A stretch of DNA of 64,000 nt from Mobula birostris. Taxonomy: Eukaryota. The DNA lies in NCBI RefSeq assembly GCF_030028105.1, contig NC_092376.1:155216212-155280211 (forward strand), given 5' to 3'. The notes beneath the pieces are model-generated. The model made no database searches. It was given only the letters and a program-made list of their open reading frames with translations, and had not been told where the DNA came from. Positions 10,860-15,495 of the stretch are shown here, one piece after another. The first letter of the stretch is position 1; each line of letters opens with the position of its first letter. A program made the position numbers and the translations under genes.

Positions 10860-13667
10860 CAAAGTTCTCTCTAATTTTTAGTAGTCAGTGTGCGCAAAAA
10901 TCTTATGTTGTGCAAATTTTTTTCCTGTGACCAAAGTATGTGCGCATTGAATGCACATCGTACAGTTTATGTAGGTTGACAAAATATTTGACATACATAT
11001 TTGCACAGAATAACAACAAAATAACATACATATTTAAGTCACTCAGTTATTTTTTCTCTTCCGTCTTTGGTATTTACCCATTCTTTGTAAACTCTATCTA
11101 GACTAATAGGACTTCCATCCAATTGATAGCTTTTGATTCTCATCAACATATCCAAATGACATTCACCTAAATGGTTTCTCAGCTTGTTTTTGAGTTGATT
11201 CATTAGGCTAAAACCTCGCTCACAGTCCGCACTAGACGCAAGAAAGGTTCCTCCAATGTCCATCAACTATGCAAGGTCATAAAACTGTTCATTTTGAAGT
11301 ACAAATGCCACCATTTGAGCAAAGTTTGAAATCAGTTTGGATTTAATTTTTTCTTGCACGGACAATTTGAAATCATTAAACCGTCTAACCATTACAGTAT
11401 TTTCAGCTAGTAAATCATGATATTTTAGAGCTTTTGTATACCGTCCAAATGCAATTTACTTGCCAAATAACACTTCAAAAAGTCAGGTTTCCAAATGGCA
11501 GCAACTTTCGCATCACGACAATACAAACAGATATAGTTGAAGTCAGAAGTTTACATACTCCTTAGCCAGATACATTTAACTCAGCTTTTCACAATTCCTG
11601 ACATTTAATCCTAGAAAACATCCCCTGTTCTAGGTCAGTTAGGATCACTACTTTATTTTAAGAATGTGAAATGTCAGGATAATAGTAGAGAGAATAATTT
11701 ATTTCGGCTTTTATTTCTTTCATCACTTTCCCAGTGGGTCAGAAGTTTACATACACTTTGTTAGTATTTGGTAGCACTGCCTTTAAATTGTTTAACTTGG
11801 GTCAAACATTTTGGGTAGCCTTCCACAAGCTTCTCAGAGTAAGTTGCTGGAATTTTGTTCCATTCCTCCAGACAGAACTGATGTAACTGAATCAGATTTG
11901 TAGGCCTCCTCGCTCGCACATGCTTTTTCAGTTCTGCCCACAAATTTTCTATCGGATTGAGGTCAGAAAATGATGTCAAGTCTTGTTCATCCTTGGGAGC
12001 AATTTTCAAATGCCTGAAGGTACCACATTCATCTGTACAAACAATAGTACGCAAGTATAAACAACATGTGACCACATAGCCGTCATACCGCTCAGGAAGG
12101 AGACACATTCTGTCTGCTAATGATGAACGTATTTTGGTGCAAAAAGTGTAAATCAATCCCAGAACAACAGCAAAGAACCTTGTGAAGATGCTGGAGGAAA
12201 CAGGTAGACAAGTATCTATATCCACAGTAAAAAGAGTCCTATATCGACATAACCTGAAAGGCTGCTCAGCAAGGAAGAAGCCACTGCTCCAAAACCGCCA
12301 TAAAAAGCCAGACAATAGTTTGCAAGTGCACATGGGGACAAAAATCTTACTTTTTGGAGAAATGTCCTCTGGTCTGATGAAACAATAAGTGAACTGTTTG
12401 GCCATAATGACCATCATTATGTTTGGAGGAAAAAGGGTGAGGCTTGCAAGCCGAAGAACACCATCCCAACCGTGAATCATGAGGGTGGCAGCATCATACT
12501 GTAGGGGTGCTTTGCTGCAGGAAGGACTGGTGCACTTCACAAAATAGATGGCATCATGAGGAAGGAAAATTATGTGGATATATTGAAGCAACATCTCAAG
12601 ACAGCAGCCAGGAAGTTAAAGCTCAGTCGCAAATGTATACCTCCAAAGTTGTGGCAAAATTGCTTAAGGACAACAAAGTCAAGGTATTGGAGTGGCCATC
12701 ACAAAGCCCTGACCTCAATCTGATAGAATATTTGTGGGCAGAATTGAAAAAGCACGTGCGAGCAAGGAGGCCTACAAACCTGACTCAGTTACACCAGTTA
12801 TGTCTGGAGGAATGGAACAAAATTCCAGCAACTTACTGTGAGAAGCTTGTGGAAGGCTACCCAAAATGTTTGACCCAAGTTGAACAACTTAAAAGCAATG
12901 CTACCAAATACTAACTAAGTGAATGTGAACTTCTGACCCACTGGGAAAGTGATGAAAGAAATAAAAGCTGAAATAAATCATTCTCCCTACTATTATTCTG
13001 ACATTTCGCATTCTTAAAATAAAGTAGTGATCCTAACTGACCTAAGACAGAGAATGTTTTCTAGGATTAAATGTCAGGAATTGTGAAAAGCTGAGTTTAA
13101 ATGTATTTGGCTAAGGTGTATGTAAACTTCTGATTTCATCTGTAACTCCAGTTTCTGAATCATACATAAATATTTCTTGTAGCTGAATGTTCATGACCTC
13201 ATGAGCTTTCAGTGTAGCAGTTTCTACTATTTTGTTAAGCCATTCAACTTTAAACAAATTTGCAGTTCTTTTGCGCTTCACACCCTTCACTTCTTTCGAA
13301 TTCAACATTTTGAATCAATATTTTTTTTCAATAAAAACTTAGTAAGCTATCTACAAGATTTGAAACAGATGTTTGTAAACTTTACGATATGAACGCTGTC
13401 CGCCAAAGATGGCTGCCGCCGCGATGCAGCTTTACAAACCGGAACAGGAAAGGGGAGGTGACGTAAACTAGTGACGTGCATTGTGGTATTTGAAAAAAAC
13501 GACTAACTAGTTAACAGAAGTATTTAGCTAAAAGATTATTTTCAATAAGTATAATTATTAATTACTACAATATCTTAGGTAACTAACCTTTTGTGCGCAC
13601 ATTAATTTCCTTTGTACACTGGTTGAAAAACGTGTGTGCACACGCACACAGCTTAGAGGGAACATAG
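10860..13667 (-). mobile_element. Non-autonomous hAT transposon, internally deleted, host of the Tc1 insertion
   Basis: TIRs CAAAGTTCTCTCTAA and TTAGAGGGAACATAG; 8-bp TSD CTCCAGTC (10852-10859) / CTCCAGCC (13668-13675); N-terminal zinc-finger remnant joined to a hAT dimerisation domain (SSADCERGFSLMNQLKNKLRN, ORF 11039-11266). Confidence 0.9.
11534..13142 (+). mobile_element. Sleeping Beauty-like Tc1 transposon (IR/DR type), defective, with two right ends
   Basis: TA TSD at 11532-11533 and 13143-13144; ends (C)AGTTGAAGTCAGAAGTTTACATAC; transposase remnant SSLGAI...KMLEETG...WSDET...WPSQSPDLN...NATKY* with stops and a deletion of the DNDPK catalytic segment near 12635. Confidence 0.95.
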
Positions 13668-15288
13668 CTCCAGCCCATAAACATTTTCTTATTTTTATCA
13701 TCATTAATCATGGAATAAACAAAGGTCTACTATATCATTCAGATGACATAACAGTAACAGCACCACACAATAATTAGGTCAATGTAGATGCTTTAAGACA
13801 TTTCATGTCAGCTATAGTTACAAACATCCTTGTTCATTTTAAAATATAAATTCTATATTTATATAAAAGCTGGTGTATACCTTTTGATGTACCTCAGTGT
13901 TTTTTGATCATAACAATTTATTTGGTTGATGTGCTCCAACAGAAATCCCGTGCATATTTTCCGTCTATATTTTGTACACCCTCAAATTACACTGCTTAAT
14001 AATTAGGTTGGACACTTACTGATTGGATAAAACTACACGTCGATTATTCTGCTATCTCATGGTGTTTGATTGTTAATCCAAATATACATTTAACCTGAAC
14101 ACACCATCCATAATTTAAACAATAATTAAAGTCAAATTTCATCTCCAAAATTAGCAGATACCGGAAAGTGAACCAATTTATTACAACAGCCTGAAAATAA
14201 GGCTGGCAGTTCTGCATTTGGAAGATTAATGGGAATTGTCATCAGTGACAAATTAACTAGTCTTTTTTAGATCTATTTCTTTATTCATCTCTTTTTTCCA
14301 AAAGCTTGACTTCATCATCTGTTGCCTTGGGGCAGGAGTTCTGTAGTCCTATCACTCAGTCCCTTGCCAGATCCTAGCAGGATGCAGGAAAAGCCTGCAT
14401 AGGATGTGACAGCTGTCCCTGGAGAAATCCTGCCGTGACCCAGCAATTAGAGGAGCAGTCGCTCAGGCACTTAGTGAAGCCATCTGTCCTACTAGGTGAC
14501 ATTGAATTGAACACAAATTGTACTCACTTTCTTGTTTGTTTACACAGGGAAGGGTGAGAAAAAATGGCATTGTTAGAAATAAAATAAGTGTATGGGCATT
14601 TAAGTAGAGAGAAATTTGCTTAATAATTCAATTTCTTCATGTAAAATCTACGTTGTATTAAGCATTTAGGAAAGATTTCTGAAGCTGCAGTACTTTGGCT
14701 ATGAAATAAACATATAACCTTCCAAAATTCTGAAAATCAGTGAATCCGAAATAACCACAGAAAATTCTGGAGATACTCAGCAAGTCAGGCAGCAGCTGTG
14801 GAAAGACAAACCAGGTCAACAAACTTTTCAAAATTTAACTGGGGAAATTTGTTGAGCAATTGTTATTGAATGTGTGTTTTTACAGTATATATAAACAATA
14901 ACAATTGTGGCTTAAAAGTGCAGTCAGAATTCTGGTTTTAAATGGTCAAAATAACATGCCATGTTATTTTATTTCTACCAGGGAAAAATGACTAGCCAAC
15001 TTGTAAAAACTCAGAGGTAACTATTCTATGACTTTGTGAGGGAGAAATTTGTCTTTGGCTGCTGATACTAAACACCTGCATAAGTAATGGTTACTACTTG
15101 TATTTTCCTCTACATATTTTGTTTCCTTGACTTCAACAGAACAAACATGAATAAAACTGACATTAATTATTCTTGTGGCAGTTAGGACCAGCAACCAAAG
15201 ATAAATTTCTCCATCATGAGAACACCTAATGAGTAACCAAGGCAGAGAAGACAGATTTAGCTGTCATTCCATGCTGTGTTATGTAATC

Positions 15289-15495
15289 AACACACATCAA
15301 AGTTGCTGGTGAACGCAGCAGGCCAGGCAGCATCTCTAGGAAGAGGTACAGTCGCCGACAGTCAGTCCTGACGAAGGGTCTCCGCCTGAAACGTCGACTG
15401 TACCTCTTCCGAGAGATGCTGCCTGGCCTGCTGCGTTCACCAGCAACTTTGATGTGTGTTGCTTGAATTTCCAGCATCTGCAGAATTCCTGTTGT
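15289..15495 (+). mobile_element. Penelope-like mini-insertion: 67-bp inverted repeat around a hammerhead motif plus 34-bp tail
   Basis: Arms 15288-15354 and 15395-15461 are complementary at 66/67 positions; 15-bp TSD ctgtg(t/c)tatgtaatc at 15274-15288 and 15496-15510. Confidence 0.92.
15363..15400 (+). ncRNA. Minimal type-I hammerhead ribozyme motif, intact core
   Basis: cagtc-CTGACGA-agg(gtctccg)cct-GAAA-cgTC^-gactg: 5-bp stem I, 3-bp stem II, palindromic ACGT in place of stem III. Confidence 0.8.

What the first reader, a model, noticed from the sequence alone, without database searches (positions are those of the whole stretch)
11532..13144. Natural Sleeping Beauty-like transposon with two right ends
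Seen: 11534-11966 is an inverted copy of 12709-13142 (about 32 differences in 433 bp by hand count) and includes the last ~68 transposase codons. The left IR/DR, promoter and ATG are absent. The junction is at a TCAG microhomology (GAGGTCAG|AAAA, matching the recalled CTCAGAAAA near the transposase start). TA flanks both ends and the host hAT frame rejoins when the element is removed. Established: the SB left IR carries a transposition enhancer, and engineered right/right constructs are reported to transpose poorly. Inference: either this symmetric derivative was mobilised as a unit, or the left end was converted in situ. Any read-through transcript would form a ~430-bp hairpin able to silence the family.
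Basis: partly seen in the sequence, partly recalled or inferred. Interest (0 to 1): 0.7.

Follow-up and report, generated by a model that had tools for sequence, protein, structure and literature searches.

The report
Two-right-ended Sleeping Beauty family dominates
This dead Sleeping Beauty-type jumping gene has a mirror copy of its right end in place of its left end, and the same join occurs at least 727 times in the genome against 152 for copies with a normal left end, so this form likely spread by borrowing enzyme from intact copies even though it lacks the left-end enhancer that helps jumping in the laboratory.

Summary
Confirmed, and it is a family, not a one-off. The 434-bp inverted arms, the TA duplication and the loss of left end, promoter region and ATG are real. 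The junction occurs 727 times in the genome, against 152 for left-end-bearing sisters and 2 full-length copies found. Flanks differ and 66 of 82 ends read TA, so it moved as a unit. Extras: the two arms of a copy share 61 changes against 13 expected, and 11 of 45 first breaks fall in 16 nt near the arm's inner end. End replacement is known in insect mariners; I found no report for Sleeping Beauty in 10 searches. Silencing is untested, and copy number does not prove better jumping. The scan found this family before, on this genome and others.

The parts
11532..11533 (.). TA target-site duplication, left
   Evidence: single TA at the empty site in host-repeat paralogs L216, L218
11534..11760 (-). 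inverted copy of the right IR/DR (outer DR 11534-11565, inner DR about 11730-11761), standing in for the left end; no half-DR
11761..11966 (-). inverted last 206 nt of the transposase ORF (about 68 codons with the stop); completes the 433/434-bp left arm
   Evidence: DDE_3 match on the minus frame
11964..11980 (+). 17-nt remnant of the parent's 5' UTR; first 3 nt (CAG) shared with the arm, last 4 nt (CAAG) shared with the ORF at codons 19-20
   Evidence: alignment to L062, L031, L063
11978..12914 (+). transposase ORF from codon 20 to the stop, no start codon; broken in this copy by a 1-bp deletion near 12301, a 28-bp deletion near 12634 and stop codons
   Evidence: PF25787, PF01498, PF13358
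12709..13142 (+). right arm: ORF end (12709-12914) plus the native right IR/DR (12915-13142)
13143..13144 (.). TA target-site duplication, right
11941..11956 (.). position of the family-wide break hotspot in the left arm (mirror at 12719-12734); intact in this copy
10860..11531 (-). host repeat, part 1: multi-copy decayed DNA-transposon-like element with a weak hAT dimerisation match
13145..13670 (-). host repeat, part 2 (continues part 1 across the insertion)

Best explanation
This is one decayed copy of a non-autonomous Sleeping Beauty-clade Tc1 family that has the right end at both ends and outnumbers its left-end-bearing sisters about five to one, and it likely spread by cut-and-paste using transposase made by the few full-length copies. 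Origin (inferred): a microhomology deletion removed most of the 5' UTR, the ATG and codons 1-19; repair of a break at the left end then likely copied the right end in reverse and rejoined at a 3-nt microhomology in the remaining UTR. The founder had identical 434-bp arms and four direct repeats with the same core, enough for the transposase although the half-DR enhancer is gone. Its success most likely reflects a usable, promoterless substrate plus founder effect; a contributing advantage is plausible because the sister form's left inner repeat is damaged. After insertion the arms likely pair now and then in single-stranded DNA, which would explain changes shared between arms and part of the deletion hotspot.
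For: Mobility: 40 of 40 scored matches (of 1772 candidates) span the junction; 291 exact and 727 near (up to 2 mismatches) junction 28-mers, reversed control 0; 17 of 30 loci are full length with unrelated flanks; 66 of 82 ends of 50 copies read TA, often in TATATA-like context. Sisters: 152 copies of the left-form N-terminal 28-mer, 74 exact for the UTR-less left/right junction, left-IR 62 against right-IR 824 exact 28-mers; 28 of 30 left-IR loci are the UTR-less left/right form, none left/left; the 5' UTR query found 3 places: 2 full-length copies and L063. Same burst: non-CpG distance to consensus 3.0% (69 right/right) and 3.5% (62 left-bearing); no fixed difference in the shared body. Founder arms differ at one CpG site only. 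Order of events: L063 has the same UTR deletion with a different 350-bp arm and a filler. DR cores: 0 mismatches in both repeats of the right arm, 2 in the sister's left inner repeat. Arm pairing: 61 shared non-CpG changes within 50 copies against a permutation mean of 12.9 (max 27 in 5000); transversions 20 against 1.8. Junction also lies in contigs of four other organism labels.
Against: No left/right intermediate with the UTR deletion was found (3 places only), so the order rests on L063 alone. Copy number reflects timing and drift as well as jumping rate, and the comparison sister has a damaged left inner repeat, so it is not a clean left/right control. In two other runs contig depth at the junction is low against the body (X7, X12), hinting that dominance is not general; the tool warns that such depth is no copy number. 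Shared arm changes could partly be inherited from source copies rather than made in place. The hotspot site is also hit in left/right copies (2 poly(A)-type insertions and one 26-bp deletion among about 26), and 10 of 70 against 0 of 27 for large deletions is not significant (Fisher p=0.057). No active transposase copy was shown: L031 has a broken frame.
Confidence: 0.9

Rival explanations
1. The left end was converted in situ at this one locus; the structure never moved.
For: End replacement happened at least twice (L063), and arms exchange sequence after insertion, so in-place conversion exists as a process.
Against: The identical junction is at 727 places with unrelated flanks and TA ends; the empty site shows insertion of the whole element.
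Confidence: 0.01
2. Right/right is intrinsically the better substrate for this lineage's transposase (matched DR cores, or long arms that help the ends pair), and this, not chance, made it dominant.
For: 4.8-fold excess at similar or slightly younger age; two independent right/right origins and no left/left form in 30 left-IR loci; perfect DR cores against a damaged left inner repeat; Mos1 prefers two right ends (PMC4505599).
Against: For Sleeping Beauty the left end carries the enhancer and left/left is the improved vector. One founder's success cannot separate rate from luck. Junction depth looks lower in two other runs.
Confidence: 0.3
3. The right/right copies acted as a killer: read-through RNA folds into a 434-bp hairpin whose small RNAs silenced the family and ended the burst.
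For: The copy can fold with 413 arm-to-arm pairs (no shuffle control); the arms cover the ORF end and right IR shared by all forms; SB repeats show weak inward transcription and RNAi effects in cells (PMC3343047 passages); right/right copies are slightly younger.
Against: No RNA evidence: only contigs were available, and runs on record as RNA held 0.46-0.55 of the words. The form reached hundreds of copies before activity stopped, and promoterless copies outnumbering the source can end a burst without RNA silencing.
Confidence: 0.15
4. The break hotspot near the arm's inner end comes from a retroelement endonuclease nick site (TTTTCT/AT) and not from arm pairing.
For: Three breaks end exactly after TTTTCT (L126, L127, L144); left/right copies L210 and L186 carry poly(A)-type insertions there, L210 with a 13-bp duplication.
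Against: Five other sites of that kind in the arm show no cluster; none of the 10 deletion junctions carries a poly-T run; the outer arm is kept in 11 cases and lost in 2 (p=0.022), which fits cutting of a stem near its loop.
Confidence: 0.4
5. Assembly artefact (false inverted duplication).
For: None.
Against: Arms differ at 32 places; 727 junctions; independent contigs of other runs cover the junction, one bridging it with more than 31 bases each side and no difference (X1 record 5).
Confidence: 0

Closest known systems
Sleeping Beauty / salmonid Tss1 subfamily (Tc1, DD34E, IR/DR type)
   Same: Family consensus 94% identical (303 of 321 aa) to a 340-aa SB-type protein P0001 and 88% to a Salmo trutta copy; best solved-structure match SB100X catalytic domain, E=7e-131; IR/DR ends, TA duplication.
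   Different: Left IR, half-DR, most of the UTR, ATG and codons 1-19 are replaced by an inverted 434-bp right arm; non-autonomous from birth. Jia et al. 2022 (PMC9777934; results passages and tables read) list the SB branch in ray-finned fish and one mollusc, none in cartilaginous fish; SB TIRs there reach 415 bp, and I could not see which element that is (spreadsheet not readable).
Rpmar49 and Rpmar17, non-autonomous mariner lineages of Rhodnius prolixus (PMC4678618; passages read)
   Same: 5' part replaced by the 3' part, long TIRs that include transposase sequence, amplification from one progenitor; in Rpmar17 later deletions cluster near the first breakpoint.
   Different: Mariner with short simple TIRs in an insect (13 and about 140-205 copies); here an IR/DR element with a known left-end enhancer, at least 727 copies in a vertebrate, with parent, sister and a second origin all in view.
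Rearranged mariner MITEs of Drosophila: Dromar7, 11, 28, 36 (PMC4161770; passages read)
   Same: One end replaced by an inverted copy of the other, giving long TIRs and a mobile sublineage.
   Different: There the 5' part always replaced the 3' part; here the polarity is opposite and nearly the whole ORF is kept.
Spaced inverted repeats folding back at DNA breaks in yeast (PMC6103520, PMC10164571; abstracts read)
   Same: Long-spacer repeats pair in single-stranded DNA and long loops are processed by Rad1-Rad10; a candidate for arm exchange and the hotspot.
   Different: Shown in yeast with engineered repeats; one of the two papers finds 1-kb-spaced repeats pair mostly between molecules. Nothing here tests the enzymes.

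Membership tests
Tc1 DD34E (Sleeping Beauty clade) | DD34E catalytic triad | tested here: met
   WSDE, MDND, PIEN motifs at 151, 243, 277 as in P0001: D153, D244, E279
Tc1 DD34E (Sleeping Beauty clade) | transposase closely related to SB rather than to sister clades | tested here: met
   94% to P0001; other 340-aa Tc1 hits fall to 52-64%; PDB matches are all SB. No tree was built.
Tc1 DD34E (Sleeping Beauty clade) | IR/DR ends: two direct repeats per end about 200 bp apart | tested here: met
   DR pairs at spacing 196 and 197; cores
Tc1 DD34E (Sleeping Beauty clade) | TA target-site duplication | tested here: met
   empty site; 66 of 82 ends TA
Canonical autonomous SB element | distinct left IR with half-DR, 5' UTR and ATG | tested here: not met
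   absent here, present in L031/L062; half-DR-like 13-mer at left-IR position 155 only. The half-DR was located by likeness to the family's own DR core, not from the published sequence.
Canonical autonomous SB element | active transposase | not testable with these tools
   this copy is broken; the family consensus is open for 321 codons but has no start
End-replacement non-autonomous derivatives (Rpmar49/Rpmar17 type) | one end replaced by an inverted copy of the other, long TIRs containing ORF sequence | tested here: met
End-replacement non-autonomous derivatives (Rpmar49/Rpmar17 type) | amplified by transposition from one progenitor | tested here: met
   shared junction, distinct TA flanks
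Killer-type hairpin locus (Mu killer-like; label recalled, no call) | hairpin transcript giving small RNAs that silence the family in trans | not testable with these tools
   only contigs were served

The most novel reading that the evidence does not exclude
In nature a Sleeping Beauty lineage was taken over by a donor with two right ends because that layout, with matched repeat cores and 434-bp arms, is the better substrate for its transposase despite lacking the left-end enhancer; the same arms then pair in single-stranded DNA, exchange sequence and break near their inner end, leaving hundreds of fragile sites. This would reverse the end preference known from the engineered system and offer a new vector design.
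Probability: 0.25. Interest if true: 0.7.

Novelty: new variant of a known kind. Interest (0 to 1): 0.45.

Why it matters
Sleeping Beauty is a widely used gene-transfer tool whose design rules favour the left end. A natural family that lost the left end yet became about 83% of the lineage (727 of 879 counted junctions) shows that the enhancer was dispensable in a vertebrate germ line, and supplies matched natural donors (full-length, UTR-less left/right, two right/right forms) for a direct test of end preference. Several hundred same-aged spaced inverted repeats are also a natural data set for how such repeats exchange sequence and break. The class of rearrangement is already known from insect mariners, the element is dead, and the scan has noted this family before, which caps the interest.

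Tried and rejected
1) My first reading of the junction as an inverted 10-nt copy of the ATG region (note) was dropped: a longer same-strand 17-nt match lies in the 5' UTR. 2) A left/left family: none in 30 left-IR loci; only 30 of 62 exact hits were read. 3) A left/right intermediate with the UTR deletion: not found; the search skips common words, so absence is not shown. 4) Solo arms as one mobile subfamily or as one inserted element: rejected, breakpoints and partners all differ; insertions longer than the 4-9 kb read are not excluded. 5) Hotspot specific to right/right: not established (p=0.057). 7) Antisense frame 11761-12615 (284 aa; 218 aa in the consensus) that runs into the inverted C-terminus in frame: treated as a by-product; no test of use. 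8) Primary paper on end combinations not held; supplement table of PMC9777934 unreadable, and it may list a similar long-TIR SB element. Repbase and Dfam could not be searched. 9) Ten paper searches found no natural right/right SB family. 10) search of earlier findings by sequence gave nothing.

Full report
Observation. The arms 11534-11966 and 12709-13142 align over 434 columns with 31 substitutions and one gap. Each holds two direct repeats about 197 bp apart and the last 206 nt of a Tc1 transposase frame. Two of nine other copies of the host repeat cover the insertion site and read one TA there, so the flanking TAs are a target duplication of the whole 1609-bp element. The host repeat is multi-copy (1205 candidates); its hAT label is weak (E=0.1).

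It is a family. All 40 scored matches to a 161-bp junction query span the junction (1772 candidates). The junction 28-mer occurs 291 times exactly and 727 times with up to 2 mismatches; the reversed control gives 0. Of the 30 loci fetched, 17 are full length with unrelated flanks; their consensus has arms identical but for one CpG site and a frame open from codon 20 to the stop, without a start. In 50 copies with both arms, 66 of 82 readable ends are TA. Contigs from four other organism labels cover the junction; one bridges it with more than 31 bases each side and no difference. These labels are coded, and I did not identify them.

Relatives in the same genome. A search with PF25787 gave copies with a different, normal left end. 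Most are a second non-autonomous form of 1468 bp, deleted from the left inner repeat to codon 3: 74 exact junctions, 28 of 30 left-IR loci read (of 62 hits). All left-bearing forms together give 152 near matches, so right/right is 4.8 times as common; left-IR and right-IR 28-mers stand at 62 and 824. The 5' UTR query found three places: full-length L031 and L062, and L063. Right/right (69 copies) and left-bearing (62) copies lie 3.0% and 3.5% from the consensus at non-CpG sites and share the same body: one burst, right/right slightly later. No left/left copy was seen.

Origin. L063 carries the same UTR deletion with 50 more bases of UTR, a filler and a 350-bp arm. The deletion 26-mer count (316) agrees with the arm junction count (291), so nearly all deletion carriers are the main form. 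Inference: deletion first, then at least two end replacements, probably by repair synthesis that used the 28-bp identity of the outer repeats. The left/right intermediate was not found.

How it moved. By established SB biology, four direct repeats are needed and the half-DR of the left end is an enhancer that is not essential (PMC7827188, passages); duplicating the left end improves vectors 2-3 times (PMC8151067, passages). Here both repeats of the right arm have the same 13-nt core, the sister's left inner repeat has two mismatches, and a half-DR-like word lies only in the left IR. So the right/right donor meets the minimum and was likely moved in trans. That it jumps better is possible (0.3) but unproven; that engineered right/right jumps poorly is recalled, as the primary paper was not held. 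For Mos1 two right ends are best (PMC4505599, passages).

What the arms do after insertion. Within 50 copies the two arms share 61 non-CpG changes against a permutation mean of 12.9 (max 27 of 5000); transversions 20 against 1.8 (L141 dropped as a duplicate of L140). This is about 8% of all changes, so exchange between arms is real but modest; the focal copy shares one change. Walking inward from 79 sampled right ends (90 loci less 11 duplicates or shorter versions; taken from the first 100 of 824 hits, leaving out the last few hits and four already-held loci, three left/right and L063), 11 of 45 first breaks fall at arm positions 411-426, against 0.5 expected (p about 6e-10 after allowing for window choice). 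Ten are deletions with different partners: three into the other arm, one into the spacer, six into unrelated DNA with no resumption in 4-9 kb; one is an insertion. The control weakens a purely structural reading: among about 26 left/right copies the same site shows two poly(A)-type insertions and one 26-bp deletion, though no large deletion (10 of 70 against 0 of 27, p=0.057). Fold-back with cutting near the loop (yeast precedents PMC6103520 and PMC10164571, abstracts) and a retroelement nick site both remain open, and may act together.

Membership and precedent. The transposase is DD34E, 94% identical to an SB-type protein and matched best by SB100X. It is an SB-clade derivative, not a canonical element. 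A named devil-ray protein carries the family's diagnostic residues (P0070), so the clade is in rays; that the host is a ray is my inference, shared by an earlier unchecked note. The survey PMC9777934 (results passages and tables) lists no SB-branch element in cartilaginous fish, which suggests horizontal transfer; no tree was built. End replacement is described for mariners: 3' over 5' in Rhodnius, with later deletions clustering near the first breakpoint (PMC4678618, passages; lead from finding e1-9954231), and 5' over 3' in Drosophila (PMC4161770, passages). Ten searches found no natural right/right SB family; Repbase, Dfam and one supplement table could not be seen.

Silencing. The copy can fold with 413 arm-to-arm pairs, and SB ends give weak inward transcription (PMC3343047, passages), but no RNA evidence was obtainable. 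It stays a hypothesis (0.15).

Verdict. Real, mobile, dominant in its lineage; a new variant of a known kind of rearrangement. Interest 0.45.

Noticed in passing
L063 (G000:C1:235.67 Mb), 348-1941: Second, independent right/right element: 350-bp left arm, about 40 nt of stuttered filler resembling the left inner repeat end, longer UTR remnant, same promoter deletion; TA at both ends; only one copy found.
   Followed up: yes
L032-L060, L064-L093: A second non-autonomous sister family (1468 bp) that also lost the UTR and ATG, by a different deletion that clips the left inner repeat. Both successful forms are promoterless.
   Followed up: yes
L189/L190 (G000:C3:106.65 Mb) and L199: Right/right copies whose arms carry the two right-IR variants typical of the sister form and of L031; in L189/L190 on both arms. 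Suggests exchange between forms followed by arm-to-arm copying.
   Followed up: partly
L210, about 700 bp inside the right arm: L1-like poly(A) insertion with a 13-bp duplication exactly at the hotspot; L186 has a bare poly-T run at the same site.
   Followed up: partly
L140 and L141 (G000:C1:201.83 and 202.01 Mb): A right/right copy next to a left/right copy, the pair duplicated about 184 kb away.
   Followed up: no
window 11761-12615, minus strand: 284-aa open frame that reads the spacer antisense and enters the inverted C-terminus in frame; 218 aa in the consensus.
   Followed up: partly
family consensus, residue 257: Leucine where the SB-type protein P0001 has tryptophan, in both non-autonomous forms and in P0070.
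   Followed up: no
window 15285-15464 and 15037-15216: A 73-bp-arm near-perfect hairpin (96%) beside a 35-bp-arm inverted repeat; look like MITE-type elements.
   Followed up: no
window 11280-11500 against L215-L223: The focal host repeat lacks about 190 bp and about 30 bp present in its paralogs, which are about 97% alike over 150 bp: a multi-copy family of similar age.
   Followed up: partly
P0070: A devil-ray gene model named as a LACTB2 isoform consists mostly of this family's transposase frame; probably a mis-annotation or exonised copy.
   Followed up: no
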